A stretch of 64,000 nt of DNA from an uncultured Lachnospiraceae bacterium (GCA_964483545.1 CAZACC010000001.1:5883-69882); one strand, 5' to 3'; positions 9,236-64,000 are shown, numbered from the stretch's first letter. The notes: generated from the letters alone by a model not told the origin. A program made the numbers and translations.

Positions 9236-9256
9236 AAAATCAAAAGGTCGGAGCAT

Positions 9257-10327: not shown

Positions 10328-10372
10328 TATGAAACAGGCATCGAAACACCGTATTAAATGTAATGAAATGCG

Positions 10373-10386
10373 GTGACAAATGTCAC
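10373..10386. promoter_or_regulatory. perfect palindrome GTGACA-AA-TGTCAC (CRP/FNR-like half sites)
   Basis: GGTGACAAATGTCACG resembles TGTGA-N6-TCACA. It lies about 110 nt upstream of the ATG at 10498. Confidence 0.25.
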
Positions 10387-10497
10387 GAAATGGGGCATAT
10401 TGATTGAAAGTTAAATAAAGACAGTGTATGATTTAGCAAATGAAGGATATTGTGGATGATTATTAAATGGAATTTCACTTATGGAAGGGAGAGAGAA

Positions 10498-51516: not shown

Positions 51517-51538
51517 AAAAGAAATCAGGAGAGCAGAT

Positions 51539-52453
51539 TTGAGACAGGAATCATTAGAGCTGATACGTCAGATCTTACAACCATCAGATTTATTATTAGA
51601 TGAACCGATGAAAAATCATACGACCTTTCGGGCAGGCGGAAATGCTGCTGTGTTTTTGACACCAGAAAACGAGGAACAGCTGTCAAAGGTACTGCAGATT
51701 CTTCGAGAGAAAAATGAGGATTATTATATTCTCGGCAAGGGTAGTAATTTGCTAGTTAGTGACAGAGGATATGCAGGTACCGTAATACAAATTAATGAAA
51801 ATATGAGCTTTATACGGTTTACGGATACCGTTATGGAGGTATCGGCAGGAGTGCTTTTATCACAGGCAGCGTCTGCGGCATGTGAACATGAGCTGACTGG
51901 CATGGAATTTGCATCTGGTATTCCAGGCACTCTGGGCGGTGCTGTCGTTATGAATGCAGGGGCATACGGCGAAGAAATGAAACAGATTGTGAAGTCTGTG
52001 AGAGTGTTACAGGATAATGGACAGATTATGACCCTCGGCTGTGAGGATATGGAATTTGGTTATAGAACCAGTCTGATTAAAAAAAGACCCTATATCGTGC
52101 TGAGTGCAGAACTGCAGCTGATTCTCGGTGAACAGAATCAAATCAGAGAAAGAATGAATGAGTTGAAAACAAAGCGTATAGAGAAGCAGCCGCTGGAATA
52201 TCCGAGTGCTGGAAGCACTTTTAAAAGACCAGAGGGATATTTCGCAGGCAAACTGATTATGGATGCAGGACTTCAAGGACATCAGATAGGGGGAGCACAG
52301 GTGTCAGAGAAGCATTGTGGCTTTATTATCAATCGCAAGGATGCCACAGCTTCGGAGATTATAATGTTGATTCGCTATGTAGTACAGGAGGTGAACAGGC
52401 AGTTCGGAGTGACGCTGGAGCCGGAGGTCTGTATGTTGGGAGAGTTTGACTAA
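51539..52453 (+). CDS. murB: UDP-N-acetylenolpyruvoylglucosamine reductase
   Basis: The ORF opens at 51401 inside glcK. I prefer the in-frame TTG at 51539 after AGGAGA. HTTFRAGG, GKGSNLL, GSTFKRP. Confidence 0.85.
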   Translation: MRQESLELIRQILQPSDLLLDEPMKNHTTFRAGGNAAVFLTPENEEQLSKVLQILREKNEDYYILGKGSNLLVSDRGYAGTVIQINENMSFIRFTDTVMEVSAGVLLSQAASAACEHELTGMEFASGIPGTLGGAVVMNAGAYGEEMKQIVKSVRVLQDNGQIMTLGCEDMEFGYRTSLIKKRPYIVLSAELQLILGEQNQIRERMNELKTKRIEKQPLEYPSAGSTFKRPEGYFAGKLIMDAGLQGHQIGGAQVSEKHCGFIINRKDATASEIIMLIRYVVQEVNRQFGVTLEPEVCMLGEFD

Positions 52454-52465
52454 GGAGCTGCAAAT

Positions 52466-53338
52466 ATGAGATTTGTGATTGTAACAGGGATGTCAGGAGC
52501 GGGAAAGAGCACGGCGTTAAAGATGCTGGAGGATGTAGGATACTACTGTGTGGATAATCTGCCAGTACCCTTGATTGAGAAATTCTCAGAATTGGTTTCC
52601 ATGCCAAACAGTGAGACGGAAAAGGTCGCATTGGGCGTCGATGTACGTACGGGACAGGCATTTGAAGAATTAGCAAAGGTATTGGACAGCATGAAGACGG
52701 CGGGATTTCCGTACGAAGTGCTGTTTTTTGAGTCCTCTGACGAGGTGCTGATGAAGAGATATAAGGAGACAAGACGCAGTCACCCGCTGGCGGCAGGAGG
52801 ACGGATTGATCAGGGAATCAAAAGAGAAAGAGCCAAGCTGAGTGATATTAAAAAGCGGGCTGACTATATACTGGATACCAGCCAACTGCTGACACGCGAA
52901 TTAAAAGCAGAGCTGGAACGGATATTTGTGTGCAATCAGAATTATAACAGTTTGTACATCACGATTTTATCTTTTGGATTTAAGTATGGGATTCCAACAG
53001 ATTCCGATCTGGTGTTTGATGTGAGATTTTTGCCGAATCCTTATTATTTTGATGAAATGAAACATAAAACAGGAAATGATGAGATTGTAAGAAATTATGT
53101 CATGAATTTTAAAGAGGCAGGTATTTTTCTAGAAAAACTGGAAGATATGCTGCAGTTTTTAATACCAAACTATATTCTAGAGGGGAAGAACCAGCTGATC
53201 ATATCCATAGGATGTACTGGTGGTAAACACAGAAGTGTAACACTGGCAAATGAGTTATACCAGCGGATTAAGGACAAAGGTGACTATGGACTGAGAGTCG
53301 AGCATAAAGATATTATGAAGGACGCATTGAGAAAATAA
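52466..53338 (+). CDS. rapZ: RNase adapter protein RapZ (YvcJ family)
   Basis: VTGMSGAGKSTALK Walker A, RFLPNPY, GCTGGKHRSV. Confidence 0.9.
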   Translation: MRFVIVTGMSGAGKSTALKMLEDVGYYCVDNLPVPLIEKFSELVSMPNSETEKVALGVDVRTGQAFEELAKVLDSMKTAGFPYEVLFFESSDEVLMKRYKETRRSHPLAAGGRIDQGIKRERAKLSDIKKRADYILDTSQLLTRELKAELERIFVCNQNYNSLYITILSFGFKYGIPTDSDLVFDVRFLPNPYYFDEMKHKTGNDEIVRNYVMNFKEAGIFLEKLEDMLQFLIPNYILEGKNQLIISIGCTGGKHRSVTLANELYQRIKDKGDYGLRVEHKDIMKDALRK

Positions 53339-53354
53339 CAAGAGAGGTGACACG

Positions 53355-54404
53355 ATGTCCTTTTCAGGTACTGTCAAGGAAGAACTCTCAAAACAGATAG
53401 GGACTTCGAGACATTGTATGATCGCTGAAACCGCTGCAATGATTATGTGTTGCGGAAAAATCAGTGAGGAGTCAACAGGTGGTTATTGCATTAGAATGCA
53501 AACAGAGAAAATACTCGTTGCTAGAAAAGTCTTTACATTACTTCGAAAAACATATAATATATATACGAATGTTTGCGTGAGAACACATGCAAGAGTCGGC
53601 AAGAGTCCTGTATATGAGGTATCTGTCAATGAACCAGAGGATGTAAAGAAGGTTCTGATGGCAATCAAGTATATGGATGAGCAAGGAAGACTGCTGACAG
53701 CGGACAGGTGTATCAATTCGATGATTATTCAGCAGACATGTTGCAGACGCGCATTTATACGAGGTTGTTTTTTGTCAGCTGGTTCGATTAGCAATCCAGA
53801 AAAATCCTATCACTTTGAGATTGTATGTGAAACACAGGAGATGGCAGAGCAGATCAGAGATGTAATTAATACCTTTTCACTGGATGCCAAAACGGTTCAG
53901 AGAAAGAGATACTATGTTGTATATCTTAAAGAAGGTGCACAGATTGTTGAAGTTTTGAATATTATGGGGGCGCATATTGCACTGATGGATCTGGAAAATA
54001 TGCGTATTGTGAAGGAAGTAAGGAATTCGGTCAACAGACGGGTGAACTGTGAGACTGCAAATATTGGAAAGACGGTATCTGCTGCGGTCAAACAGATGGA
54101 GGATATACAATATCTGATGGATATGTCTGAGTTTGGAAATCTTCCGTTGGGTCTGCGTGAGATAGCACAGGCAAGAATGGACGATCCGAATGCAACACTT
54201 GCAGAACTGGGGGAATCATTAACTCCTGCTATTGGTAAGTCAGGAGTCAACCATAGATTGAGGAAATTAAGTGAACTAGCGGACAGACTGAGAGGTCAAA
54301 AGGAGGAGCATTATTATGATTCAGAAGCCAATATCAATTCAATTAGAGAACGGACTGGAGGCAAGACCAGTGGCAGTATTGGTACAGGTAGCAAGCCAGT
54401 ATGA
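53355..54404 (+). CDS. whiA: DNA-binding protein WhiA
   Basis: MSFSGTVKEEL N-terminus, RRAFIRGCFLSAGSISNPEKSYHFE, and a C-terminal HTH (KSGVNHRLRKL). Its last about 30 codons overlap the next gene. Confidence 0.9.
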   Translation: MSFSGTVKEELSKQIGTSRHCMIAETAAMIMCCGKISEESTGGYCIRMQTEKILVARKVFTLLRKTYNIYTNVCVRTHARVGKSPVYEVSVNEPEDVKKVLMAIKYMDEQGRLLTADRCINSMIIQQTCCRRAFIRGCFLSAGSISNPEKSYHFEIVCETQEMAEQIRDVINTFSLDAKTVQRKRYYVVYLKEGAQIVEVLNIMGAHIALMDLENMRIVKEVRNSVNRRVNCETANIGKTVSAAVKQMEDIQYLMDMSEFGNLPLGLREIAQARMDDPNATLAELGESLTPAIGKSGVNHRLRKLSELADRLRGQKEEHYYDSEANINSIRERTGGKTSGSIGTGSKPV

Positions 54405-54570
54405 TAGCGTAATCTATATTGAGGCTGAAGGGAAAAGAGTGAATGCAAAAAGCATTATGGGAATGATGTCACTCGGAATGGCAAATGGTGAGATCCTGAA
54501 TGTATCGGCAGATGGGGCAGATGAACAGGCCGCCATGGAGGGAATTGAGGATTATCTGAGCGGAAAGTAA
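54316..54570 (+). CDS. crh: HPr-family protein lacking His15 (Crh-like)
   Basis: AGGAGG RBS. The protein is MIQKPISIQLENGLEARPVAVLVQ..VNAKSIMGMMSLG. The Ser46 region is conserved, and the His15 position is Glu. Confidence 0.8.
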   Translation: MIQKPISIQLENGLEARPVAVLVQVASQYDSVIYIEAEGKRVNAKSIMGMMSLGMANGEILNVSADGADEQAAMEGIEDYLSGK

Positions 54571-54577
54571 TAGGAAT

Positions 54578-55495
54578 ATGAAAAATCGAAAACTGTTTTT
54601 TATTTATAATCCACGTGCGGGAAAAGGTCAGATTAAAAATCATATAGTTCGTATACTTGATATTTTTGCGAAAGAAGGTTATGAGATCACAATATATCCT
54701 ACTAAATATCCTGGAGATGCTATTACTGCAGTGCAGAATGTGACAGAGGGTTATGATTTATGCGTATGCAGCGGCGGTGACGGGACATTGGATGAAGTAG
54801 TGACAGGCATGATGAAACGGGACAATAAATTGCCGATAGGATATATTCCAGCAGGGAGTACGAATGACTTTGCAAATAGCTTGAAAATACCTAAAACAAT
54901 GGAAAAGGCAGCGGAAGTAGTAGTGCGGGGTTATCGTTTCCCATGTGACATAGGATCTTTTAATGACGATGTATTTGCCTATATTGCAGCATTTGGTCTG
55001 TTTACAGATGTTTCTTACGGTACGCCTCAGGAAATCAAGAATCTTCTAGGACATATGGCTTATCTGTTGGAAGGCATGAGAAGACTGCCTGCTGTGAATA
55101 GTGCCTGTCGCTTAAGAGTGGAGAGTAATGGAAAACAGATTGAAGAGGATTTTATTTTTGGTATGGTCACAAATTCCTATTCAGTGGGAGGTTTTAAAAG
55201 TATTACAGGTAAATATGTGAAACTCAACGACGGACTATTTGAAGTCACCTTGATCAAACGTCCCCAGAATCCACTGGAAATGCAGGGAATCATGACCGCT
55301 CTGCTGGCACAGGAAACAGATGAAAGGTATATGTATAGTTTTAAAACAAAGGAAATTATCATAGAGGCACAGAAGAAGATTCCATGGACTTTAGATGGTG
55401 AGTTTGGTGGTGAGCATAAGAAAGTTCAAATCAGAAATAACAGAGAAACACTAGAATTCATCGTTCCAGAAAGAAAAATGAAAATACTCCCATAA
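54578..55495 (+). CDS. diacylglycerol kinase family lipid kinase (YegS/DagK-like)
   Basis: NPRAGKG and CSGGDGTLDEVV motifs. Confidence 0.85.
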   Translation: MKNRKLFFIYNPRAGKGQIKNHIVRILDIFAKEGYEITIYPTKYPGDAITAVQNVTEGYDLCVCSGGDGTLDEVVTGMMKRDNKLPIGYIPAGSTNDFANSLKIPKTMEKAAEVVVRGYRFPCDIGSFNDDVFAYIAAFGLFTDVSYGTPQEIKNLLGHMAYLLEGMRRLPAVNSACRLRVESNGKQIEEDFIFGMVTNSYSVGGFKSITGKYVKLNDGLFEVTLIKRPQNPLEMQGIMTALLAQETDERYMYSFKTKEIIIEAQKKIPWTLDGEFGGEHKKVQIRNNRETLEFIVPERKMKILP

Positions 55496-55740: not shown

Positions 55741-56265
55741 TCACGCCTTTGTTGGCTCTGGGTATTCTACTCCAAAGGTTTCAATGGTCATAGATTTAAC
55801 TTTCTGTTCTTGAACGGGTTTGTCAGAATAGTCTACCTGTACGGACGCGATTTTATCTACGATATCCAATCCCTCTGTAACCTTGCCAAATGCAGCATAG
55901 GCTCCATCCAGATGTGGAGAGGTCTTGTGCATCAAGAAAAACTGTGATCCTGCTGAATCAGGATGTGCACTTCTTGCCATAGATAATACTCCGGGATCAT
56001 GTGCGAGATCGTTTTGAAAGCCATTTTGTGAGAACTCGCCTGGAATGTTGTATCCTGGACCGTCATATCCTGTGCCTGAGGGACAACCTCCTTGAATCAT
56101 GAAGCCATTGATGACTCTGTGAAAAATGAGACCATCATAGAATCCTTTTGAAACAAGACTGATAAAATTATTGACTGTGTTGGGAGCGATATCAGGATAA
56201 AGCTCCGCTTTCATCATATCTCCGTTTTCCATTGTAATCGTAACGATTGGGTTTTGTGAAATCAT
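55741..56265 (-). CDS. peptidylprolyl isomerase, cyclophilin type
   Basis: Start trimmed to MISQNPIV after GGAGGAA. FHRVINGFMIQGG and SMARSAHPDSAGSQFF. Confidence 0.9.
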   Translation of the reverse strand: MISQNPIVTITMENGDMMKAELYPDIAPNTVNNFISLVSKGFYDGLIFHRVINGFMIQGGCPSGTGYDGPGYNIPGEFSQNGFQNDLAHDPGVLSMARSAHPDSAGSQFFLMHKTSPHLDGAYAAFGKVTEGLDIVDKIASVQVDYSDKPVQEQKVKSMTIETFGVEYPEPTKA

Positions 56266-56439
56266 TGTAATTCCTCCATATAATTGATTTAAAATAAAAA
56301 GTGCTTTGTTTATTGTAACGAAATGTGGTAAGATAGTAAAGAAAAATTCCTCCGATTTAGGGATAAATGAAGGAAATTTTATATAATGAATGTAAATGTA
56401 TAAGTTGAGCCAAAGAGCTGGATACAGAAAGAGGCATTT

Positions 56440-57003
56440 ATGGGACATATGATATTTCAACTGCCGACAATTCATAAGGAGAATTATTTTACTACAGAGG
56501 TGATTGTTTTTGCAATTTCTGTGCTTGTACTAATTATCGGAATTCTTCTATGTCTATGGGGATATAAGTATTTTCAAACATTAGCTGTTATTATACTGGG
56601 ATGCCTATCAGGCTATGTAGGAATCAAATTAACAGATCATCTGACCAATAGTCCTATTATTAAGATGTTTATCTTTACAATTTTTACATTTTTAGGATGT
56701 TGTCTCTTTTATTTTCTATCTATTCTGATTGATGGCTTTCTGAAGATGATTCATTTGAAGAAGGGAATTGCTGGAAAGATGTATATATTGTCAAGTTTAT
56801 TAGGGGCCGCACTGATTGCTTTCATAGTATACCGTATGGTATACGACGGCTGGATAATTTGTGTGATTATTTTTGTTCTCTTTGCAGTTATGGGGATGAT
56901 TTATCAGAAGATTAAAAAGGCATCAAGACCTGAGTTCCACTGTTATGAAGATATCTTCAAGATGAAACCGTTACCAAAAGAGGAGAATAAACAGAATGCT
57001 TGA
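56440..57003 (+). CDS. polytopic membrane protein of unknown function (first gene of the VTC/CotH operon)
   Basis: About 5 hydrophobic helices and an AAGAGG RBS. It overlaps the VTC gene by 8 nt. Confidence 0.5.
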   Translation: MGHMIFQLPTIHKENYFTTEVIVFAISVLVLIIGILLCLWGYKYFQTLAVIILGCLSGYVGIKLTDHLTNSPIIKMFIFTIFTFLGCCLFYFLSILIDGFLKMIHLKKGIAGKMYILSSLLGAALIAFIVYRMVYDGWIICVIIFVLFAVMGMIYQKIKKASRPEFHCYEDIFKMKPLPKEENKQNA

Positions 57004-57691
57004 CGTATATAGAAAAGAGCTGAAATATCTGATTGATCCGATGGAAATGGTGAGAATGAAATCTGTTCTAGACAAGATTATGAGCAGCGATAGTCATAAC
57101 GGAGTGAATGGATACCGTGTTCGCTCATTATATTTTGATACATTGTTGGATTCGGATTTTGAGGAAAAACTAGCAGGTTATGATTCCAGACAGAAAATCA
57201 GAATTCGTGTTTATGATGGAAACAGTCAGGTATATAAGCTGGAATTGAAGGCAAAAGAAAAAGATATGCAGAGAAAAATATCGCTTCTCTTATCAAGGGA
57301 GGAGACAGAATCCATGATGCGGGCAGACTATTCCTTTCTGCTGGATCGACCTGAAAAACCTGCATCGTCTCTTTATATAAAACTGATTATGCACAGCTAT
57401 CGACCCAAATGTATTGTTGAATATGATCGATATGCATATATAAGAAATACAAACAACATTAGGATCACATTTGACATGAACCTGAGGGCGACAGAAAGCA
57501 ATCTGAACCTGCTGGACGAGAATCTGATTTTATATCCAGTGTGCAGACCAGGTGAGATTACAATGGAAGTAAAGTATGACAAGTTTCTATTTTCTTTTAT
57601 CAAAAATGCAATCAAACAGATTGATCGAACACAAATTTCTAACAGTAAATACTGCAAGGCCAGAAAAATTTCCAAGAAGGGAAGAATTTAA
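56996..57691 (+). CDS. VTC-domain protein (triphosphate-tunnel / polyphosphate-polymerase-like)
   Basis: Alternating charged beta-strand motifs of the tunnel fold are present: RKELKYLI, YRVRSLYFDT, KIRIRVY, YKLELKAKE, ITMEVKYD. The size (231 aa) is typical of bacterial VTC-domain proteins. Confidence 0.65.
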   Translation: MLDVYRKELKYLIDPMEMVRMKSVLDKIMSSDSHNGVNGYRVRSLYFDTLLDSDFEEKLAGYDSRQKIRIRVYDGNSQVYKLELKAKEKDMQRKISLLLSREETESMMRADYSFLLDRPEKPASSLYIKLIMHSYRPKCIVEYDRYAYIRNTNNIRITFDMNLRATESNLNLLDENLILYPVCRPGEITMEVKYDKFLFSFIKNAIKQIDRTQISNSKYCKARKISKKGRI

Positions 57692-57694
57692 CTT

Positions 57695-58381
57695 ATGAAA
57701 GAATACTTGTATGAAGGACTATTGAACAGTTCGGGTTCTTTAACACTTAGGGATGTCATTATCAATTTTGCTGCGGCATGTATTATCAGCCTCCTAATCT
57801 TTATCTCCTATCGATTGACACATTCGGGAGTGGTATACAGCAAGAAATTTAATGTATCGCTGGTTATGCTTACCTTGATTACAACACTTGTAATGAACGT
57901 CATTGGGAATAACATAGCACTTTCTCTTGGTATGGTAGGAGCACTTTCCATTGTTAGATTTCGAACGGCAATTAAGGATTCCAGAGATACAGCCTATATT
58001 TTCTGGGCAATTGCTGTCGGTATCTGCTGTGGAGTATCAGATTATTTAGTTGCTGGTATTGGAACGTTTGTTATTTTTTTAGTTCTAGTCCTGTTCGGAG
58101 TGGTAAAGGATAATGAACGAATCATGATTATTATAAAAACGGATTCAGAAATGATTAAGATGGTTGATGTAAGTGTGACCTCTCTTTTTGATGGTAAGGC
58201 AGTGTTGCGTGTTCAAAACAACTCGGTAGAATCCGGTGTAGCAGAGATGATATATGAAGCATCTGATAGCATTCTCATAAAAACGGAAAAAAAGAATGGC
58301 TCTGTTATTAGAAAATTGTCAGAAATTGACGGGGTGTATACTGTCAGCATCGTACAGCAGGATGATGAAATCAGCCAGTAG
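57695..58381 (+). CDS. DUF4956-like membrane protein
   Basis: About 4 TM helices with the conserved-looking GALSIVRFRTAIKDSRDTAYIFWAIAVG block, plus a C-terminal soluble domain of about 90 aa. Confidence 0.55.
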   Translation: MKEYLYEGLLNSSGSLTLRDVIINFAAACIISLLIFISYRLTHSGVVYSKKFNVSLVMLTLITTLVMNVIGNNIALSLGMVGALSIVRFRTAIKDSRDTAYIFWAIAVGICCGVSDYLVAGIGTFVIFLVLVLFGVVKDNERIMIIIKTDSEMIKMVDVSVTSLFDGKAVLRVQNNSVESGVAEMIYEASDSILIKTEKKNGSVIRKLSEIDGVYTVSIVQQDDEISQ

Positions 58382-58392
58382 GGGGATAATTC

Positions 58393-60009
58393 ATGTTTTA
58401 TAACAAACGAGTGGTCTGGATCCTGACTGTCGGAATGATAGGAATACTGTCTCTGCTTGTGCTGAGCCTGATTCGGGTGGAATTTGATCATATAGAAAAT
58501 GGGAATGATGGCAGCTATCATAGACTAGCAAAAGATACATCTGCAGAAGATCCGCTAAAGTATATACAAGAGGACTTTTTAGTTACGGAGGGCTTTCATA
58601 CGAATCTTCCTATTGTCATACTGTCCATTGATGGAGAAATCCCAGATTATAAGAACTTTGAGAATAGTCAGGAAGTTGTTTTTGATGGTGTAGACCCTTA
58701 TATAACAGGAAATATGGCAGTGATTGACCGAGGAAAAAATGACAATTTCCTGACGGATACACCTTCTTATTTTGGACAGATTAAGCTTAAGAAGAGGGGC
58801 CACACTTCGTATTCTTATGATAAACTACAGTATCTTGTGAAAACAGTAAAAGCAGATGGCACAGATGACAGTCCAAATCTGTTAGGTATGGGTGAGGGTG
58901 ACAGTTGGATCTTAAACGGAAGCATGGCAGATAAGAGTATGATTCGTAATTATCTTCCTTACCGTATTGCATCTGAGATTGGTGGCAATCGGATGGCTCC
59001 GGATAGTCAGTTTTGTGAGGTATTGCTGAAAAAGGATCAAGGTTATGAGTATCAAGGTGTTTTTCTTTTGATGGAGACGGTATCAAGAGGGAGTTCGAGA
59101 GTCAATATTGATCAATACAGAGAGAAAAATATTTATTCCAGCTATATAGTGCGTCGTGACAGGTTTACTAATTTTGATGTGATGTTGGATACTTACGGTC
59201 GTCTCAATGGCTTTTCTGAGCAGTGGATTGGTATGAAATATCCGTCAGCAGCAAAATTGTCCGATCAGACGAAACAGTTTATTGAAAAGGATTTTTCTAA
59301 GACGGAGCAGATTCTGTATGCTGAAGACGAAGCAACTTTTAAGATTTATGATAAATATATCAATATTAATTCATTTGTTGATTATTTCTTAATCAATGAG
59401 TATTTTGGCAACTACGATGCAGGGGAACATTCAACTTATATGTATAAGAATTCTGGGGATCTTTTGAACATCGGTCCAGTGTGGGATTTTGACCAGGCAA
59501 TGAATAATTACTTTTTGGAAGAGATGAATGCAGAGACGCTTGCATTTCAGACAAAGCCTCTCTTTATTCAGTTAATGAATGATAAACGATTTATAGAAGC
59601 GTTGAAAGATCGGTACAGTAAACTCCGCAACAAGGCATTATCAGAGGAGCATGTTTTTTCCGTTATAGATGAGACAATTGAATACTTGAAATCTGCAAGG
59701 GTGAGAGAGTGGTATCGTTGGGCGGCAGATTATGAAGAAGGTTCCTTTGCTAATAACCATAATTATTACCTACAGGATTACGTTGTAGATAATGTAACTA
59801 TTAGTCGATTTAATGATAACTACAATCAGGAAATCTATAATATCAAGAATTATTTACATCAGCACGGACAGGTTATCCAGACCGAGTTGTCTAAGATGAG
59901 TAAGTCGGCAGAGTTTAATTCTTCGCTGAATAATGAGAATGAATTGTTGCTTTTGATTATCATGGTTCTGTTTTTGATTCCGTCATTTTTTATTAACAGA
60001 GAGGGTTAG
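58393..60009 (+). CDS. CotH-family kinase-like protein anchored by N- and C-terminal TM helices
   Basis: CotH-like blocks: LNGSMADKSMIRNYLPYRIASEIG, YQGVFLLMETV, INEYFGNYDAGEHSTYMYK, GPVWDFDQAM. Hydrophobic helices sit at residues about 8-27 and at the extreme C-terminus. Confidence 0.7.
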   Translation: MFYNKRVVWILTVGMIGILSLLVLSLIRVEFDHIENGNDGSYHRLAKDTSAEDPLKYIQEDFLVTEGFHTNLPIVILSIDGEIPDYKNFENSQEVVFDGVDPYITGNMAVIDRGKNDNFLTDTPSYFGQIKLKKRGHTSYSYDKLQYLVKTVKADGTDDSPNLLGMGEGDSWILNGSMADKSMIRNYLPYRIASEIGGNRMAPDSQFCEVLLKKDQGYEYQGVFLLMETVSRGSSRVNIDQYREKNIYSSYIVRRDRFTNFDVMLDTYGRLNGFSEQWIGMKYPSAAKLSDQTKQFIEKDFSKTEQILYAEDEATFKIYDKYININSFVDYFLINEYFGNYDAGEHSTYMYKNSGDLLNIGPVWDFDQAMNNYFLEEMNAETLAFQTKPLFIQLMNDKRFIEALKDRYSKLRNKALSEEHVFSVIDETIEYLKSARVREWYRWAADYEEGSFANNHNYYLQDYVVDNVTISRFNDNYNQEIYNIKNYLHQHGQVIQTELSKMSKSAEFNSSLNNENELLLLIIMVLFLIPSFFINREG

Positions 60010-60017
60010 GGATACAT

Positions 60018-60209
60018 ATGTGTTACAGCTGTAATTTGTTGCTTGCTTCCATAGTGGATTCTGAACAGGTAAAACCAAGAAGATTCTTTTTGATGGATTT
60101 TCAGGATCCGTATATCGTCTGGACATTTCGTATTGCAGCAATGCTGATTTTAGTAATTGCTTTGATCATATATGTAGTTAAAAGAAAGAATCAAAAGAAC
60201 GGAGAATGA
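60018..60209 (+). CDS. small single-TM protein
   Basis: 63-aa ORF with one helix (FRIAAMLILVIALIIYVV) and a basic tail. It fits tightly between CotH and MBOAT, with gaps of 8 and 3 nt. Confidence 0.35.
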   Translation: MCYSCNLLLASIVDSEQVKPRRFFLMDFQDPYIVWTFRIAAMLILVIALIIYVVKRKNQKNGE

Positions 60210-60212
60210 TCA

Positions 60213-61646
60213 ATGCTATTTTCCAGTATTGTATTTCTGTTTTATTTTCTGCCGATTGTATTTATACTTTATTATTTGCTAGCATTTTCCAGAATGCTTC
60301 AGAATATTCTGTTGCTCATAGCGAGCTTGATTTTCTATGCTTGGGGTGAGCCGGTTTATGTTTTTTTGATGCTAGCTTCGATTATCTTCAACTCGATCAT
60401 GGGGTATTTAGTAGAGAGACCGAAAAAAGCATCTGGAAAAAAAATAGCTTTGGTAGTTGATATCGTAGTAAATCTATTAGTGCTATTTGTATTTAAGTAT
60501 CTTGGATTTGTACTGAAATCAATTGGATTGGCTGCGAATCTTGATTTCTCAGAGTTTCAATTGTCATTACCGATTGGTATTTCTTTTTTTACATTTCAGG
60601 CACTATCCTATGTGATTGATGTATACCGTGGCACCACAAAAGCTGAGAATCCGTTCTATGTAGGACTATATATAGCATTTTTTCCGCAGTTGATTGCCGG
60701 ACCGATTGTGCAGTACAATACGGTTGCTGATCAGATCCGGAATAGAAAATCCAGTTTTGATAAAATCTCAGTCGGGCTAAGCCGGTTTACAGTAGGATTG
60801 GGGAAGAAAGTGCTCTTATCAAACTGTTTTGCAGCAATTGCAGATCATGTATTTGAGTGGTCGGCAATAGGAACAGACAGACTTCAGGTTCCAGTGATGC
60901 TGGCGTGGTTGGGAAGTATCTCATATACACTGCAGATTTATTTTGATTTCTCTGCTTATTCAGATATGGCAATCGGGTTGGGACTTTGCTTTGGTTTTAA
61001 ATTTGGAGAGAACTTTAATTATCCGTACATCGCAGATTCTGTTACGAACTTTTGGAAGCGGTGGCATATTTCATTGACTGACTGGTTTCATGATTATGTA
61101 TATTTTCCACTGGGTGGGAGTCGGGTTAATAATCAGGACTACATGGTGCGCAACATATTTATTGTATGGCTGCTGACTGGTATCTGGCACGGTGCCAACT
61201 GGACATTTATTTTCTGGGGATTGATGTATTTTGTATTTCAACTGGCTGAACGTTTTTTTGAGTATCCTAAGAAATTGAAGAGTAAGTTTGCAAAGCACTT
61301 ATATACATTGATGGTGGTCAATGCTGCGTGGGTCATATTCAGGGCTGATGATCTCTACCAGGCAGGAAGGTTTTTTATGAACATGCTTGGTGTCAACCGA
61401 AATGGGTTTTACAGTGAGACAGCAATGATGCTAATTCGTGAGAATTGGGTATTTCTTCTTTTGGGAGTTATTTTCTCCATGCCGGTTGCAAGAAATATGA
61501 ATGAGATCCTTTATAAGGATCCTAAATCCTGGATTAATAAATTGTATACGATTGTATATCCAATCGGATTGATGTTGATATTGGTCTTGTGTGTTTGTTA
61601 TTTGGCGAGCGGAACATATAATCCGTTTATTTATTTCAACTTCTAG
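60213..61646 (+). CDS. MBOAT family O-acyltransferase (AlgI/PatA/WssH-like)
   Basis: LPIGISFFTFQALSYVIDVYRG, FFPQLIAGPIVQY, YFDFSAYSDMAIG, FWKRWHISLTDWFHDYVYFPLGGSR, TGIWHGA. Confidence 0.9.
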   Translation: MLFSSIVFLFYFLPIVFILYYLLAFSRMLQNILLLIASLIFYAWGEPVYVFLMLASIIFNSIMGYLVERPKKASGKKIALVVDIVVNLLVLFVFKYLGFVLKSIGLAANLDFSEFQLSLPIGISFFTFQALSYVIDVYRGTTKAENPFYVGLYIAFFPQLIAGPIVQYNTVADQIRNRKSSFDKISVGLSRFTVGLGKKVLLSNCFAAIADHVFEWSAIGTDRLQVPVMLAWLGSISYTLQIYFDFSAYSDMAIGLGLCFGFKFGENFNYPYIADSVTNFWKRWHISLTDWFHDYVYFPLGGSRVNNQDYMVRNIFIVWLLTGIWHGANWTFIFWGLMYFVFQLAERFFEYPKKLKSKFAKHLYTLMVVNAAWVIFRADDLYQAGRFFMNMLGVNRNGFYSETAMMLIRENWVFLLLGVIFSMPVARNMNEILYKDPKSWINKLYTIVYPIGLMLILVLCVCYLASGTYNPFIYFNF

Positions 61647-61665
61647 GTGTGAGGCGACTGATACT

Positions 61666-62871
61666 ATGAAAAGTTATTTGCTGAAAAAAAGAATATTTGC
61701 TATTATATTTATGCTGACGGTCTTCGGATACTCTGCATTGAATATACAGCACACATACGAACCATTAATGACTTTACTGAAATCTTTGAAAACCATAGAT
61801 GTTGCAGAGATTGAGAACGAGATTTCAAGCAACTTGTACGAGAGAATTAAATTCATTGAAACATATGCATATATTCAGGTTCTGTTGGATAAGAGAGAAT
61901 GTAATAACTTTACTATGATCAGGGATGAGCAGAATTATCTGCACTATGCTTCTTTTTTTCGAGAGGGGGACACGCAGCTGTTTGAGTATGCAATGCGTGT
62001 AAAACGGCTGCAGGATTATGTCGAAGCAAACGGGACTAAGGTACTTTTCGTAGTAGCTCCGTCTAAATACTCTTCCAAGTATTCCGAGCTACGAGCTGGA
62101 ACACCCATCAATAATCCAGAGAGTACGGTAACAGAGCTTCTGTTTTATTTGAATCGTTTGGGAATAGAAACATTGAATCTAGGAGAGACAATGCCAAATG
62201 AGGATCTCTCTTATAAGGAGACTTTTTTTAAATCAGATCATCACTGGACAATCCCGGCAGCGTTCTATGCCACACAGAAGGTGACGGAACAGCTGCATGA
62301 AAGATTTGGATTGGATCTGGATCCGGAGCATTACTATATGAATCCGGACAGTTATCAACAGGTAACATATTATGGGGGAATGCTTGGCTCCATGGGAAGA
62401 AAAACCGGCGCTTGCTTTTCGGGGGTGGATGATTTTACGGCTTTTTGGCCGACTTTTGAAGGGGACTTTCATCGAGAGTCGATGACAAATGACGGTGCCA
62501 TCGTTAAGTCAAAGGGTTCCTTTGTGAAAGCATTTATGAATTTAGATGCACTGACGGATAAAGAGGATCTGTATTCTGGATCACAGTATTCTTTGTACCT
62601 GAACGAACTTCGTATTTATGAAAAAATCACAAATGATGAAAAACCGGACGGATGCAAAATGTTTATGATTAGAGACTCCTATTTTTCGCCGGTTATTGCC
62701 TTTATGATGCCAATGTGTGGTGAAATTGATGCCATTTGGTCCTTAGAGGAGTCTGATTATGTGGACATTGAGACTTATGTCAGAAACAATCAATTTGATT
62801 ATATCATTATTGAAGTTTATCCATATAACATCAATAGTGAAGCATTTAATTATTTCAAAGAAAAGGAGTGA
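61666..62871 (+). CDS. DHHW family protein (AlgJ/AlgX-like O-acetyltransferase partner)
   Basis: Start trimmed to MKSYLLKKRIFAIIFML (N-terminal anchor). The eponymous FFKSDHHWT motif is present. Confidence 0.7.
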   Translation: MKSYLLKKRIFAIIFMLTVFGYSALNIQHTYEPLMTLLKSLKTIDVAEIENEISSNLYERIKFIETYAYIQVLLDKRECNNFTMIRDEQNYLHYASFFREGDTQLFEYAMRVKRLQDYVEANGTKVLFVVAPSKYSSKYSELRAGTPINNPESTVTELLFYLNRLGIETLNLGETMPNEDLSYKETFFKSDHHWTIPAAFYATQKVTEQLHERFGLDLDPEHYYMNPDSYQQVTYYGGMLGSMGRKTGACFSGVDDFTAFWPTFEGDFHRESMTNDGAIVKSKGSFVKAFMNLDALTDKEDLYSGSQYSLYLNELRIYEKITNDEKPDGCKMFMIRDSYFSPVIAFMMPMCGEIDAIWSLEESDYVDIETYVRNNQFDYIIIEVYPYNINSEAFNYFKEKE

Positions 62872-62879
62872 GAAGAGAG

Positions 62880-64000
62880 ATGGCTAAATTCAATACAAGA
62901 CTACATAATGCAAAAGGAAAAGCATGGTTTCTGATAAATATGTTTTTTACGATTGTATATTTAATCTGGAGAATCTTCTTTACTATACCTTTAGAATATG
63001 GATGGGTGTCCATTGTTGCGGGTATTGCATTACTGATCGTAGAGGTGTTGGGAATGGTGGAAGCATTTATTCATTATGCCAATATGTATAACGTTGAGAA
63101 CTATCCTCTGCCAGTGGTTCCGATTGAACGTTACCCAGATGTCGATGTTTTTATTGCAACCTACAGCGAAGAAACAAGGCTTCTTTATAAAACGATTAAT
63201 GGATGCCGATACATGGATTATCCGGATAAGAGCAAGGTACATATTTATCTGTGTGATGACAACAGACGCCCTGAAATGAAAGAACTTGCAGAGAAGATGG
63301 GTATTAATTATTTGGACAGACCCGATAATGAAGGAGCGAAGGCAGGCAATTTGAATCATGCAATGGCACATAGTCAATCGCCGCTTGTTGTAACGCTTGA
63401 TGCAGATATGATTCCAAAACGGGATTTTCTGATGAAGACCGTTCCGTATTTTGTGGACAATGAAATCAAAAATGAGGGAAGAAAGGATGAGGATAAGATT
63501 AAAATTGGCTTTGTTCAGACGCCTCAGTGCTTCTATAATCCGGACTTGTTTCAGTTCAATCTGTTCTCTGAAGGACGTATTCCGAACGAACAGGATTATT
63601 TTTATAAGGACATACAGGTTGCAAGAACGCGTAGCAACAGTGTAATCTATGGTGGATCCAACACAGTTCTGCGGAGAGAGGCAATTAACGATGTTGGTGG
63701 ATTCTATACCGATGCTATAACAGAGGATTTTGCTACTGGAATCTTGATGGAAAAGAAGGGCTATGTCTCTTTGGGGATTGGGGAACCTTTGGCATCTGGG
63801 ATGTCACCGACTGATTTGCAGGGCTTGATCCAGCAGCGTACCCGTTGGGCAAGAGGTGTGATTGCTACCGGAAGAAAAATGCACATTTATACATCTTCGG
63901 ACTTGTCCTTTTCACAAAAGATGAATTACTGGGCATCCATATGGTATTGGTATGCACCGCTTAAGAGATTAATTTATATAATGTCACCAATTCTGTTTGC
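62880..64000 (+). CDS. bcsA: cellulose synthase-like catalytic subunit (BcsA-type GT2), 3' end outside the window
   Basis: My own translation from the ATG at 62880; the ORF is absent from the track because no stop occurs in the window. DVFIATYSEE, LCDDNRRPE, KAGNLNHA, TLDADMIP, VQTPQCFYNPD, ITEDFATG, QQRTRWARG. Confidence 0.85.
   Translation, partial: MAKFNTRLHNAKGKAWFLINMFFTIVYLIWRIFFTIPLEYGWVSIVAGIALLIVEVLGMVEAFIHYANMYNVENYPLPVVPIERYPDVDVFIATYSEETRLLYKTINGCRYMDYPDKSKVHIYLCDDNRRPEMKELAEKMGINYLDRPDNEGAKAGNLNHAMAHSQSPLVVTLDADMIPKRDFLMKTVPYFVDNEIKNEGRKDEDKIKIGFVQTPQCFYNPDLFQFNLFSEGRIPNEQDYFYKDIQVARTRSNSVIYGGSNTVLRREAINDVGGFYTDAITEDFATGILMEKKGYVSLGIGEPLASGMSPTDLQGLIQQRTRWARGVIATGRKMHIYTSSDLSFSQKMNYWASIWYWYAPLKRLIYIMSPILF

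What the first reader, a model, noticed from the sequence alone, without database searches (positions are those of the whole stretch)
56440..60209. VTC-domain protein, DUF4956 membrane protein and extracytoplasmic CotH-family kinase-like protein: a possible bacterial polyphosphate-synthesis/export module feeding an outside kinase
Seen: five co-directional genes are packed with overlaps or gaps of at most 11 nt (starts at 56440, 56996, 57695, 58393, 60018). The 231-aa protein has the alternating charged strands of a triphosphate-tunnel/VTC domain and no TM segment. The next protein is polytopic (DUF4956-like, GALSIVRFRTAIKD block). The CotH-like protein has a hydrophobic helix at each end, with KR before the first helix. 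This predicts that the kinase-like domain (VWDFDQ acidic motif) faces outside.
Established: in yeast, the VTC catalytic domain polymerises polyphosphate from ATP and passes it through an associated membrane channel. CotH proteins are atypical ATP-dependent protein kinases.
Inference: an outward-facing kinase has no ATP supply. A cytoplasmic VTC polymerase plus a DUF4956 channel could deliver polyphosphate to it as donor or cofactor. Alternatively, polyphosphate itself could be the exported product. As far as I know this trio has no experimentally defined function.
Basis: partly seen in the sequence, partly recalled or inferred. Interest (0 to 1): 0.8.

Follow-up and report, generated by a model that had tools for sequence, protein, structure and literature searches.

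The report
Polyphosphate-kinase trio inside a cellulose operon
The five genes are real and are the front half of a nine-gene operon for an acetylated cellulose-like biofilm sugar in a gut Lachnospiraceae bacterium, where a polyphosphate-polymerase-like enzyme, its membrane partner and an outward-facing kinase-like enzyme form an add-on cassette that has been described before but whose chemistry is still unknown.

Summary
The ORFs lie at the stated coordinates and hit Pfam VTC (1e-30), DUF4956 (1.6e-14) and CotH (4e-45). The VTC-like protein models as a Vtc4-type tunnel and keeps the triphosphate-binding residues that could be aligned. CotH keeps both catalytic aspartates and has a hydrophobic helix at each end.

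The finding stops too early. The operon continues into an MBOAT/DHHW O-acetyltransferase pair, a BcsA-like GT2+PilZ synthase cut by the window end, and a GH5 cellulase just beyond it. This is a ccs-type acetyl-cellulose locus.

In 80 species-level loci, VTC and DUF4956 are adjacent in 75 of 76. CotH is present in 66 of 73. 61 of 66 CotH loci also carry a processive GT2 synthase, against 0 of 14 loci without CotH.

The trio is already published as a Pel-operon accessory group. In S. intermedius, deleting the CotH or the DUF4956 gene changes Pel level and aggregation; deleting the VTC gene does not.

New here: the trio occurs outside Pel loci, VTC–DUF4956 is the core pair, and CotH tracks the synthase. 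The idea that exported polyphosphate feeds the outside kinase is plausible but untested, and one genetic result argues against it. It is a new variant of a known, uncharacterised kind, of moderate interest.

The parts
56256..56439 (+). Intergenic region that probably carries the operon promoter and the ribosome-binding site of the first gene
   Evidence: The cyclophilin gene on the minus strand really starts at 56265 (GGAGG followed by ATG, read). That leaves 174 nt before 56440. There is a promoter-like GTGAAA-17-TATAAT at 56256-56284 (10 of 12 matches; a consensus match only). An AGAAAGAGG ribosome-binding site precedes the ATG at 56440. No Rfam family matches here.
56440..57003 (+). Gene A: a 187-aa membrane protein with about 5 helices and a Lys/Arg-rich C-terminal tail. 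Function unknown.
   Evidence: ORF; no Pfam or NCBIfam hit; hydropathy. It lies directly upstream of VTC in 44 of 78 testable loci. Longer relatives give only a sub-threshold TM7S3/TM198-like hit.
56996..57691 (+). Gene V: a 231-aa cytoplasmic VTC-type triphosphate-tunnel protein, a candidate polyphosphate polymerase
   Evidence: Pfam VTC E=1.1e-30. AF2 pLDDT 89.9. The best Foldseek match is the yeast Vtc4 catalytic domain 3g3q (E=3.3e-14, TMq 0.72). A profile alignment hits Vtc4 at E=4.8e-10. Residues R6, K10, R69, R71, K85, K94, Y143, R145 and R156 align with Vtc4 R196, K200, R264, R266, K281, K294, Y359, R361 and R373. No hydrophobic segment.
57695..58381 (+). Gene D: a 228-aa DUF4956 protein with about 5 membrane helices and a cytoplasmic ACT-like C-terminal domain (MgtC-like layout). 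It is the obligate neighbour of V.
   Evidence: Pfam DUF4956 E=1.6e-14; MgtC 24.3 bits, below the 31.4 cut-off. AF2: helices 18-134 at pLDDT about 55, and a beta-alpha-beta-beta-alpha-beta domain at 142-222 at pLDDT about 80. The best Foldseek match is the MgtC C-terminal domain 2lqj (E=1.5e-3). It lies directly after V in 75 of 76 loci.
58393..60009 (+). Gene C: a 538-aa CotH-family kinase-like protein anchored by a helix at each end, with the catalytic domain predicted to face outside
   Evidence: Pfam CotH E=4.2e-45. Profile A7 hits B. cereus CotH 5jd9 at E=4.1e-11 over residues 38-358. D342 and D365 align with its two Asp residues, which are 23 apart; these correspond to B. subtilis D228 and D251 (PMC7821199). 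Helices at 7-29 and 516-534, with KR before the first. Both helices are present in 119 of 119 orthologues.
60018..60209 (+). Gene s: a 63-aa single-pass membrane protein (the true start may be the internal Met26). Function unknown.
   Evidence: ORF; also called as a gene on L083. One helix at 33-51 followed by KRKNQK. Conserved between CotH and MBOAT in 42 of 73 loci.
60213..61646 (+). MBOAT membrane O-acyltransferase (CcsH/WssH/PatA-like)
   Evidence: Pfam MBOAT E=1.9e-27. It matches the DltB model at 139 bits, far below the 375 cut-off, so it is not DltB itself. Present in 59 of 72 loci.
61666..62871 (+). DHHW/AlgX-like SGNH O-acetyltransferase partner (CcsI/WssI/PatB-like), with an N-terminal signal anchor and an outside-facing domain
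   Evidence: Pfam ALGX E=1.1e-12 and DHHW E=2.7e-7. The DHHW motif is visible in the translation. The gene call on L083 gives 401 aa starting at the position equal to window 61666. KKR followed by a hydrophobic helix. Present in 57 of 69 loci.
62880..64000 (+). 5' part (373 aa) of a BcsA/CcsA-like processive GT2 glycan synthase, cut off by the window end
   Evidence: The ORF runs off the window, so the ORF listing did not report it. It was found by translation, with an AAAGGAG ribosome-binding site. Pfam GT2 families and Cellulose_synt. TED and QxxRW (QRTRW) motifs are visible. The full-length gene on L083 is 776 aa with a PilZ hit and is followed by a GH5 cellulase. It lies directly after the DHHW gene in 57 loci.

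Best explanation
The five genes are an accessory cassette at the head of a nine-gene, synthase-dependent exopolysaccharide operon. The operon is A, VTC, DUF4956, CotH, s, MBOAT, DHHW, BcsA-like GT2+PilZ and GH5, and it most likely makes an O-acetylated beta-glucan (cellulose-like) polymer.

Shown:
- The operon structure.
- The family memberships.
- The conserved active-site residues.
- The predicted topology.
- VTC and DUF4956 form an almost inseparable core pair.
- CotH is an optional third member whose presence tracks a neighbouring processive glycan synthase.

Inferred mechanism:
- The cytoplasmic VTC-like tunnel enzyme polymerises phosphate from a nucleoside triphosphate at the inner face of the membrane.
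- It is held there by DUF4956, and perhaps also by protein A.
- DUF4956 acts as the conduit and/or gate that passes this phosphoanhydride polymer outward.
- The outward-facing, membrane-tethered CotH phosphotransferase uses it as phosphate donor. Its target is the nascent polysaccharide, or a surface or matrix component made with it.
- The MBOAT/DHHW pair O-acetylates the same polymer.
For: Operon:
- Gene junctions are an 8-nt overlap and gaps of 3 to 19 nt from 56440 to 62880.
- The complete nine-gene unit is seen on L083, bounded by opposite-strand genes.
- The MBOAT, DHHW, GT2+PilZ and GH5 genes match the ccsH, ccsI, ccsA and ccsZ set described for C. difficile (PMC7710045).

VTC-like protein:
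- Pfam E=1e-30.
- Confident model, with Vtc4 as the best structural match.
- Seven of the residues whose mutation lowers polyphosphate in yeast (K200, R264, R266, K281, Y359, R361 by alignment; K458 by pattern) are invariant here (residue roles from bioRxiv 10.1101/2023.01.27.525886).
- Two of the top 150 family representatives fuse a polytopic membrane domain to the VTC domain. This fits an enzyme that works at the membrane.

Pairing:
- DUF4956 follows VTC in 75 of 76 loci.
- The pair also stands alone in 10 loci and occurs as second copies.
- The same pairing is found on a Planococcus plasmid and on a Deinococcus plasmid, the latter with the order CotH, VTC, DUF4956.

DUF4956:
- Its Lys/Arg-rich loops and its C-terminal domain are all predicted on the cytoplasmic side, where VTC sits.
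- Its membrane helices carry invariant polar residues N68, N72, N73 and D116.

CotH:
- Both catalytic Asp residues are kept.
- An N-terminal signal or anchor is present in 119 of 119 close relatives and 13 of 13 distant ones.
- 61 of 66 CotH loci carry a processive GT2 synthase. Four of the other five are truncated, and the fifth has a CotH that has lost both Asp residues.
- 0 of 14 loci without CotH carry a synthase. For loci with complete flanks, Fisher p=7e-9, not corrected for shared ancestry.

Links to polysaccharide:
- The trio sits next to three different synthase types: Pel, ccs-type (this work), and a GT2/HEAT type also seen in C. perfringens NELoc-2.
- Knockouts of the CotH and DUF4956 homologues change Pel level and aggregation.
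Against: - Nothing here shows that polyphosphate is made, exported or used.
- In S. intermedius the VTC knockout showed no change in aggregation or Pel level. The CotH knockout made less Pel and the DUF4956 knockout made more. The opposite signs, and a dispensable VTC, do not fit a simple supply chain unless another polyphosphate source is redundant.
- DUF4956 resembles MgtC, which is known as a regulator rather than a channel. Its membrane part modelled poorly (pLDDT about 55).
- The VTC-like protein keeps a Glu (E8) where Vtc4 has Thr198. This is closer to the ExExK motif that, as I recall it, marks hydrolytic tunnel enzymes, so a hydrolase role is not excluded.
- The C-terminal Vtc4 residues E426, S457 and K458 could not be aligned and are matched by pattern only.
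- The trio accompanies chemically different polysaccharides. This fits a general or regulatory role at least as well as a sugar-specific kinase.
- VTC–DUF4956 pairs without CotH sit in housekeeping surroundings.
Confidence: 0.4

Rival explanations
1. Regulatory cassette with no polyphosphate export. DUF4956 (MgtC-like membrane domain plus a ligand-binding ACT-like domain) and the VTC-like enzyme sense or adjust cytoplasmic phosphate and energy state, with polyphosphate staying inside the cell. CotH is a surface protein kinase, or a non-catalytic partner, that tunes the output or assembly of the synthase complex.
For: - In S. intermedius the DUF4956 knockout raises Pel and the CotH knockout lowers it. 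That is a change in amount, as expected of regulators, and the VTC knockout shows no change.
- DUF4956 has a sub-threshold MgtC hit and an MgtC-like C-terminal fold.
- The published view is that the polyphosphate may stay cytoplasmic and that CotH may regulate by protein phosphorylation.
- VTC–DUF4956 pairs occur without CotH or a synthase, in a cysS, rlmB, sigma-factor housekeeping neighbourhood.
- The trio accompanies chemically unrelated polysaccharides.
Against: - The CotH domain is predicted outside the membrane in every homologue examined and keeps its catalytic Asp residues. It would still need a phosphate donor outside the cell, which this model does not supply.
- The near-absolute VTC–DUF4956 adjacency, and the fusions of a membrane domain to VTC, point to an enzyme working at the membrane rather than a soluble store-builder.
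- The antibody blot that measured Pel could also be affected by chemical modification of Pel.
Confidence: 0.28
2. Polyphosphate itself is the exported product. VTC and DUF4956 secrete it into the wall or matrix, where it binds cations or bridges polymers, for example cationic Pel. CotH binds, anchors, trims or caps it rather than acting as a classical kinase.
For: - VTC–DUF4956 pairs exist without CotH, so the pair must have an output of its own.
- The Vtc4-like active site is kept.
- Yeast VTC couples synthesis to passage across the membrane.
- One trio locus (L079) also encodes a purple-acid-phosphatase-like enzyme.
Against: - CotH keeps both catalytic Asp residues in 22 of 23 diverse homologues. 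This argues for catalysis rather than mere binding.
- There is no evidence for a channel in DUF4956.
- The VTC knockout shows no aggregation or Pel-level change in S. intermedius.
Confidence: 0.12
3. The VTC-like protein is not a polymerase. It is a tunnel-fold tri- or polyphosphate hydrolase, or a phosphate-ligand sensor, that controls DUF4956. The name 'polyphosphate polymerase domain' would then be misleading for the bacterial branch.
For: - E8 replaces Vtc4 Thr198 in the first strand, giving R-x-E-x-K. This is closer to the ExExK motif that, as I recall it, marks hydrolytic tunnel enzymes.
- Hydrolytic tunnel enzymes (E. coli YgiF, CYTH proteins) are also significant structural matches (E=1e-9 to 1e-8).
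- No bacterial VTC-domain protein has been characterised in the papers I could search.
- The yeast paralogues Vtc2 and Vtc3 show that the fold can be catalytically silent.
Against: - Vtc4 is the best match by both sequence and structure.
- All six aligned triphosphate-binding residues are invariant.
- The pattern S217-K218 matches Vtc4 S457-K458, and K458 is the residue that separates active Vtc4 from inactive Vtc2 and Vtc3. This match is by pattern only.
Confidence: 0.1
4. The adjacency is chance, or the ORFs are not genes.
For: None found.
Against: - Strong Pfam hits.
- Hundreds to thousands of homologues.
- The same order recurs in dozens of species.
- The trio recurs in Planococcus and Deinococcus, with a different order in Deinococcus.
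Confidence: 0.01

Closest known systems
cotH / poly-phosphate polymerase / DUF4956 accessory gene group of Gram-positive pel operons (Whitfield et al. 2020, bioRxiv 10.1101/768473; S. intermedius SIR_1594, SIR_1593 and SIR_1592, mBio 2025, PMC12345266)
   Same: The same three families are contiguous and co-directional, next to a synthase-dependent exopolysaccharide operon. CotH is predicted secreted or outside-facing. DUF4956 is described as a membrane domain plus an ACT domain. The VTC-like protein is cytoplasmic with its catalytic residues.
   Different: - Here the partner operon is ccs-type (BcsA-like GT2+PilZ, MBOAT/DHHW, GH5), not pelDEA(DA)FG.
- The order is VTC, DUF4956, CotH at the head of the operon, rather than downstream of pel.
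- There is no DUF4832 gene and no FN3 domain on CotH. Instead CotH has a C-terminal membrane helix.
- There are two extra small membrane proteins (A and s).
- The mBio paper states that the three-gene arrangement was not found outside the Pel locus. The loci here show that it is.
Yeast VTC complex (Vtc4 catalytic tunnel domain with the Vtc1/2/3/4 membrane channel)
   Same: Same Pfam family and same fold. The aligned triphosphate-binding residues are kept. The enzyme is encoded next to, and in a few homologues fused to, membrane proteins. This suggests synthesis at the membrane.
   Different: - There is no SPX domain and no membrane domain of the kind found in the Vtc subunits.
- The partner is DUF4956 (MgtC-like), which is unrelated to the Vtc1-type three-helix subunits.
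- Glu replaces Thr198.
- Activity and translocation are untested.
Clostridial cellulose synthase locus ccsZABHI (Scott et al. 2020, PMC7710045)
   Same: A GT2+PilZ synthase, an MBOAT plus DHHW O-acetylation pair and a GH5 hydrolase are all present in one operon.
   Different: The gene order is different. No CcsB (CBM11-like) gene was found. The VTC, DUF4956 and CotH cassette and proteins A and s are added; that paper does not mention them.
Bacillus spore-coat kinase CotH (structures 5jd9 and 5jda) and related secretory-pathway kinases of the Fam20 type
   Same: Same Pfam family. Full-length profile alignment at E=4e-11. Both catalytic Asp residues are kept with identical spacing.
   Different: Bacillus CotH works in the mother-cell cytoplasm, where ATP is available, on the coat proteins CotB and CotG. 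This protein is membrane-anchored with its domain outside the cell, sits in a polysaccharide operon, and has no known donor or substrate.
MgtC/SapB family
   Same: A membrane domain followed by an ACT-like cytoplasmic domain. There is a weak sequence match and a weak structural match.
   Different: The Pfam score is below the family cut-off. MgtC is known as a regulator of ATP synthase and phosphate signalling (as cited), not as a partner of a tunnel enzyme.
Phosphoethanolamine cellulose (mentioned in PMC7710045; enzyme name BcsG from my own knowledge)
   Same: It is a precedent for a phosphate-bearing group being added to cellulose outside the cytoplasm, using a donor that is available there.
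   Different: The enzyme family and the donor (a membrane lipid) are unrelated. This is a functional analogy only.

Membership tests
VTC-type triphosphate-tunnel polyphosphate polymerase (Pfam PF09359; yeast Vtc4) | Sequence match to the family model above the curated cut-off | tested here: met
   107.4 bits against a cut-off of 23, E=1.1e-30, covering 2-232 of 235 model positions.
VTC-type triphosphate-tunnel polyphosphate polymerase (Pfam PF09359; yeast Vtc4) | Closed beta-barrel tunnel fold | tested here: met
   AF2 pLDDT 89.9, pTM 0.87, with eight long strands. The top Foldseek matches are all Vtc4 catalytic domains (3g3q E=3.3e-14, TMq 0.72), ahead of other tunnel enzymes.
VTC-type triphosphate-tunnel polyphosphate polymerase (Pfam PF09359; yeast Vtc4) | Triphosphate-binding residues K200, R264, R266, K281, Y359 and R361 | tested here: met
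   They align with K10, R69, R71, K85, Y143 and R145, which are invariant in 22 diverse homologues.
VTC-type triphosphate-tunnel polyphosphate polymerase (Pfam PF09359; yeast Vtc4) | Metal-binding E426, and S457/K458 (K458 separates active Vtc4 from inactive Vtc2 and Vtc3) | tested here: inconclusive
   The HMMER alignment ends at Vtc4 residue 382. A profile of the C-terminal part alone found nothing. The invariant E191-x-K193 and S217-K218-Y219 fit the pattern but are not aligned.
VTC-type triphosphate-tunnel polyphosphate polymerase (Pfam PF09359; yeast Vtc4) | SPX regulatory domain and Vtc-type membrane channel domain, in the same protein or complex | tested here: not met
   The protein carries only the VTC domain and has no hydrophobic segment. 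None of the neighbours has these domains.
VTC-type triphosphate-tunnel polyphosphate polymerase (Pfam PF09359; yeast Vtc4) | Polyphosphate synthesis from ATP | not testable with these tools
   This needs an enzyme assay.
DUF4956 (Pfam PF16316) | Sequence match above the curated cut-off | tested here: met
   54.4 bits against a cut-off of 30.6. Orthologues carry the same precomputed assignment.
MgtC/SapB family (Pfam PF02308) | Sequence match above the curated cut-off | tested here: not met
   24.3 bits against a cut-off of 31.4. The NCBIfam MgtC/SapB model gives 18 bits against 214. The C-terminal domain resembles the MgtC C-terminal domain only weakly (2lqj, E=1.5e-3).
CotH kinase family (Pfam PF08757) | Sequence match above the curated cut-off, and alignment to a solved CotH structure | tested here: met
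   155 bits against a cut-off of 23.8. Profile A7 against B. cereus CotH 5jd9 gives E=4.1e-11 over chain residues 38-358.
CotH kinase family (Pfam PF08757) | Catalytic Asp and metal-binding Asp (B. subtilis D228 and D251) | tested here: met
   D342 and D365 align with the two Asp residues of 5jd9, which are 23 apart. This is the same spacing as D228 and D251. They are kept in 22 of 23 homologues, the exception being L076.
CotH kinase family (Pfam PF08757) | ATP-dependent protein kinase activity on spore-coat proteins | not testable with these tools
   The context differs: the domain is predicted outside the cell and the gene is in a polysaccharide operon. Donor and substrate are unknown.
ccs-type O-acetyl-cellulose locus (PMC7710045) | GT2 synthase with a PilZ domain | tested here: met
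   The window holds 373 aa with GT2 and Cellulose_synt hits and the TED and QxxRW motifs. The full-length gene on L083 and the orthologue on L026 carry PilZ.
ccs-type O-acetyl-cellulose locus (PMC7710045) | MBOAT plus DHHW-family pair | tested here: met
   Pfam MBOAT, and ALGX plus DHHW. The DHHW motif is in the translation.
ccs-type O-acetyl-cellulose locus (PMC7710045) | GH5 hydrolase (CcsZ) | tested here: met
   It lies beyond the window end but on the same organism's contig L083, directly after the synthase. It is present in 24 related loci.
ccs-type O-acetyl-cellulose locus (PMC7710045) | CcsB (membrane protein with a CBM11-like domain) | tested here: not met
   None of the nine operon genes has such a domain.
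Pel-associated cotH / PPP / DUF4956 accessory group (Whitfield 2020) | The three families contiguous and co-directional | tested here: met
   Seen in 66 of 73 related loci.
Pel-associated cotH / PPP / DUF4956 accessory group (Whitfield 2020) | Contiguity with pelDEA(DA)FG, and presence of DUF4832 (or a diguanylate cyclase/phosphodiesterase gene) | tested here: not met
   The operon is bounded by opposite-strand genes and holds ccs-type genes instead. No DUF4832 hit in any operon protein.

The most novel reading that the evidence does not exclude
A bacterial counterpart of the yeast VTC system, with a soluble Vtc4-like polymerase docked on a DUF4956 membrane protein, exports polyphosphate. An outward-facing CotH enzyme then uses that polyphosphate in place of ATP as phosphate donor to phosphorylate a nascent exopolysaccharide. 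The product would be a phosphorylated, acetylated cellulose-like polymer. This would be the first energy supply line for a kinase outside the bacterial cytoplasm. It might also explain the extracellular CotH domains found in cellulosomes.
Probability: 0.2. Interest if true: 0.85.

Novelty: new variant of a known kind. Interest (0 to 1): 0.55.

Why it matters
An active-looking kinase fold placed outside the bacterial membrane has no obvious phosphate donor. The gene that always travels with it looks like the eukaryotic polyphosphate polymerase. If the link is real, it would define a new way to power chemistry outside the cell and a new chemical modification of biofilm polysaccharides.

The cassette is common in gut and rumen Lachnospiraceae. 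It also occurs in pathogens: the S. intermedius Pel locus and C. perfringens NELoc-2. Its function therefore bears on biofilm formation and colonisation.

Three results here sharpen the problem for experimenters:
- The trio is not confined to Pel loci, contrary to a published statement.
- VTC–DUF4956 is the core pair.
- CotH appears only where a processive glycan synthase is next door.

Tried and rejected
- Single-sequence PDB searches with the VTC-like and CotH proteins found nothing useful. The profile of close orthologues (A1) also missed Vtc4. Only profiles that included distant homologues worked (A3, A7).
- Profiles of the C-terminal parts alone (A4 for the CotH C-lobe, A5 for the VTC C-terminus) gave no PDB hit. 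Vtc4 E426, S457 and K458 therefore remain matched by pattern only.
- The AF2 model of DUF4956 has a low-confidence membrane part (pLDDT about 55). Its Foldseek matches say something only about the C-terminal domain. No statement about a pore can be made.
- A defence-system origin was considered and dropped: no PADLOC hits.
- A c-di-GMP or other riboswitch upstream of the operon was looked for; no credible Rfam match.
- I tested whether the membrane domain fused to VTC in P0441 and P0507 is homologous to protein A. BLASTP found only a 23-residue motif (E=0.008) and the profile search gave E=0.19 with high compositional bias. This is not significant, so it is reported only as 'a polytopic domain fused to VTC'.
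- Co-folding VTC with DUF4956 was not possible. The structure tool takes one chain and accepts only restricted inputs.
- The original CotH kinase paper (Nguyen et al. 2016) is not held. The residue numbers D228 and D251 were taken from PMC7821199.
- D-alanylation (a DltB-like role) for the MBOAT gene was considered and rejected. The score is far below the DltB cut-off, and the partner is a DHHW/AlgX-type protein next to a BcsA-like synthase.

Full report
**1. Observation**

- A: 56440-57003, 187 aa.
- V: 56996-57691, 231 aa.
- D: 57695-58381, 228 aa.
- C: 58393-60009, 538 aa.
- s: 60018-60209, 63 aa.

The junctions are an 8-nt overlap, then gaps of 3, 11 and 8 nt. Pfam assigns V to VTC (E=1.1e-30), D to DUF4956 (E=1.6e-14, plus a sub-threshold MgtC match) and C to CotH (E=4.2e-45). 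A and s have no family. NCBIfam adds nothing for these five. A gene caller run by others on a contig of the same organism gives identical genes (L083). The organism is a Lachnospiraceae; the nearest genome locus, L001, has 73% identity for V.

**2. The unit is larger than the finding**

The tight packing continues:
- MBOAT at 60213, after a 3-nt gap.
- A DHHW/AlgX-like SGNH protein, whose real start is 61666.
- An ORF starting at 62880 that runs off the window end and was therefore not listed by the ORF listing. Translation shows a BcsA-type processive GT2 with TED and QxxRW motifs.

On L083 this synthase is 776 aa with a PilZ hit. It is followed by a GH5 cellulase and then by an opposite-strand gene. 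Upstream, the cyclophilin gene on the minus strand really starts at 56265. This leaves a 174-nt promoter region, and no riboswitch is detected there.

So the unit is a nine-gene operon. Its back half matches the ccsH, ccsI, ccsA and ccsZ set proposed for O-acetylated cellulose in C. difficile (PMC7710045). That paper does not mention the front half.

**3. Comparative genomics**

A scan of one genome per species returned 80 loci around V homologues. I called ORFs and searched them with iterated profiles of the window proteins. Counting only loci long enough to contain each gene:

| Gene | Loci with it / loci testable |
|---|---|
| D directly after V | 75 / 76 |
| C | 66 / 73 |
| MBOAT | 59 / 72 |
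| DHHW | 57 / 69 |
| A | 44 / 78 |
| s | 42 / 73 |

Further points:
- A BcsA-like GT2+PilZ follows the DHHW gene in 57 loci, and a GH5 follows in 24.
- V–D pairs also occur alone in 10 loci, after a sigma-factor gene in a cysS/rlmB housekeeping neighbourhood.
- V–D pairs occur as second copies after the synthase. There they are followed by a second, divergent CotH carrying Fn3_assoc and CHB_HEX_C domains.
- In Coriobacteriia and Murimonas the trio precedes a different cluster: an unknown 744-aa protein, a HEAT-repeat protein and a chitin-synthase-like GT2.
- The same layout is on a Planococcus plasmid. A Deinococcus plasmid has the trio alone, in the order C, V, D. These two were the only CotH hits in the whole plasmid collection.
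- 61 of 66 loci with C have a processive GT2 synthase in the fetched region. Four of the other five end within 2.6 kb of C. The fifth, L076, has a CotH that has lost both catalytic Asp residues.
- None of the 14 loci without C has a synthase. For loci with complete flanks, Fisher p=7e-9. The loci are related, so this p-value overstates independence. The rearranged and cross-phylum cases are the stronger argument.

**4. The three proteins**

*V (VTC-like).*
- AF2 gives pLDDT 89.9.
- Foldseek ranks the yeast Vtc4 catalytic domain first (3g3q, E=3.3e-14), ahead of YgiF and CYTH enzymes.
- A profile of diverse homologues aligns to Vtc4 residues 190-382 at E=4.8e-10.
- In that alignment, Vtc4 K200, R264, R266, K281, Y359 and R361 match K10, R69, R71, K85, Y143 and R145. 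All are invariant. These are the residues that bind triphosphate and are needed for polyphosphate in yeast.
- E426, S457 and K458 lie beyond the aligned part. The invariant E191-x-K193 and S217-K218 fit by pattern only.
- One difference: Glu8 stands where Vtc4 has Thr198.
- The family is large, with 7,621 clusters at 50% identity at E<=1e-3.
- Two of the top 150 representatives carry a polytopic membrane domain fused in front of the VTC domain. Homology of that domain to A is not significant.

*D (DUF4956).*
- It has about five helices at 18-134, with invariant polar residues.
- It has an invariant basic loop, R88-F-R90-T-A-I-K94-D-x-R97.
- It has a C-terminal beta-alpha-beta-beta-alpha-beta domain whose best, weak, structural match is the MgtC C-terminal domain.
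- By the positive-inside rule, the basic loops and the C-terminal domain face the cytoplasm.
- Nothing shows a pore.

*C (CotH).*
- A profile aligns over the full length to B. cereus CotH (E=4.1e-11).
- D342 and D365 fall on its two Asp residues, which are 23 apart. These are the equivalents of B. subtilis D228 and D251, whose mutation kills the kinase.
- Every homologue examined has an N-terminal signal or anchor. The close orthologues also have a C-terminal helix.
- The catalytic domain is therefore predicted to lie outside the membrane.

**5. What is already known**

- Whitfield et al. described cotH, a poly-phosphate polymerase gene, DUF4956 and DUF4832 as an accessory group contiguous with Gram-positive pel operons.
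- C. perfringens NELoc-2 holds a CotH gene, two VTC genes, a HEAT-repeat gene and a glycosyltransferase.
- The S. intermedius study (preprint, mBio 2025) deleted each gene. Loss of CotH lowered Pel and loss of DUF4956 raised it, and both reduced aggregation in sputum medium by more than half. No change in aggregation or Pel level was reported for the VTC mutant.
- The same paper says the three-gene arrangement was not found outside the Pel locus. The loci analysed here show otherwise.
- I found no biochemical characterisation of any bacterial VTC-domain protein, of DUF4956 or of an extracellular CotH. Extracellular CotH domains in cellulosomes are likewise unexplained.

**6. Explanation**

The best-supported reading is that the finding is an accessory cassette of a synthase-dependent exopolysaccharide operon.
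- The V–D pair is a membrane-associated unit that makes, and probably hands outward, polyphosphate.
- CotH is an outward-facing phosphotransferase recruited whenever a glycan synthase is present.
- It most likely uses the V–D product to phosphorylate the polymer or something assembled with it, alongside O-acetylation by the MBOAT/DHHW pair.

I put this at 0.4.

The main rival, at 0.28, is a regulatory cassette with no export. It explains the opposite-sign Pel phenotypes and the dispensable VTC better, but it leaves the outside kinase without a donor. Two smaller rivals are polyphosphate as the secreted product with CotH as its handler (0.12), and a hydrolase or sensor role for the VTC-like protein (0.1). 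Chance is excluded.

**7. Verdict**

The family, fold, topology and co-occurrence predictions hold. The mechanism is untested, and one genetic result argues against it.
- This is a new variant of a known but biochemically uncharacterised cassette.
- The results that go beyond the literature are: the association with ccs-type and GT2/HEAT-type loci, the V–D core pair, and the link between CotH and a neighbouring synthase.

Noticed in passing
window 62880-64000: A BcsA/CcsA-like GT2 synthase gene runs off the window end. The ORF listing does not show it because ORFs that touch an end are not listed. It is the key to the context of the finding.
   Followed up: yes
window 55741-56475 (minus strand): The mechanical ORF for the cyclophilin-type prolyl isomerase is over-extended and appears to overlap gene A. 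The real start is the ATG at 56265, preceded by GGAGG, which gives a protein of about 174 aa and a 174-nt divergent intergenic region.
   Followed up: yes
L010 18317-20688; also L012, L016, L025, L027, L028, L047, L058: Eight related species carry a second VTC–DUF4956 pair directly after the synthase. It is followed by a divergent CotH with N-terminal Fn3_assoc and CHB_HEX_C (carbohydrate-enzyme-associated) domains. These species therefore have two trios flanking one polysaccharide operon.
   Followed up: partly
L031, L033, L039, L043, L045, L046, L049, L050 (about 7800-11500 in each): VTC–DUF4956 pairs without CotH sit after a sigma-70-family gene and a 494-aa GDSL/SGNH protein, in a conserved cysS, rlmB-like housekeeping neighbourhood. 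The pair therefore has a role independent of polysaccharide operons.
   Followed up: partly
L076 11383-12999: This Oscillospiraceae CotH has Gly in place of both catalytic Asp residues (NRGAG and VWGFNS). Its locus is the only full-length CotH locus without a glycan synthase. It is a likely pseudokinase.
   Followed up: partly
L079 17727-19598: A purple-acid-phosphatase-like metallophosphoesterase lies at the end of a trio plus HEAT plus GT2 cluster in Murimonas intestini. It is another phosphate-handling enzyme in the same neighbourhood.
   Followed up: no
P0441 and P0507 (representatives): These proteins have an N-terminal polytopic membrane domain, an acidic and Pro-rich linker and a C-terminal VTC domain. 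Other long representatives (P0375, P0376, P0498, P0500) have long low-complexity or coiled-coil N-terminal extensions. P0370 joins a truncated VTC domain to an EAL fragment and may be an assembly or gene-calling artefact.
   Followed up: partly
L052 8179-9612: A GGDEF diguanylate cyclase lies directly upstream of the trio in a Coriobacteriia genome. This echoes the cyclase/phosphodiesterase gene reported next to the trio in bifidobacterial pel loci.
   Followed up: no
window 51401-55495: The genes upstream of the operon look like housekeeping genes. Only the YegS-type lipid kinase at 54578-55495 was checked against Pfam and NCBIfam. By eye the others resemble murB (51401-52453), a RapZ-like P-loop protein (52466-53338), WhiA (53355-54404) and an HPr-like protein (54316-54570). 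The WhiA-like and HPr-like ORFs overlap by 89 nt as mechanically called.
   Followed up: no
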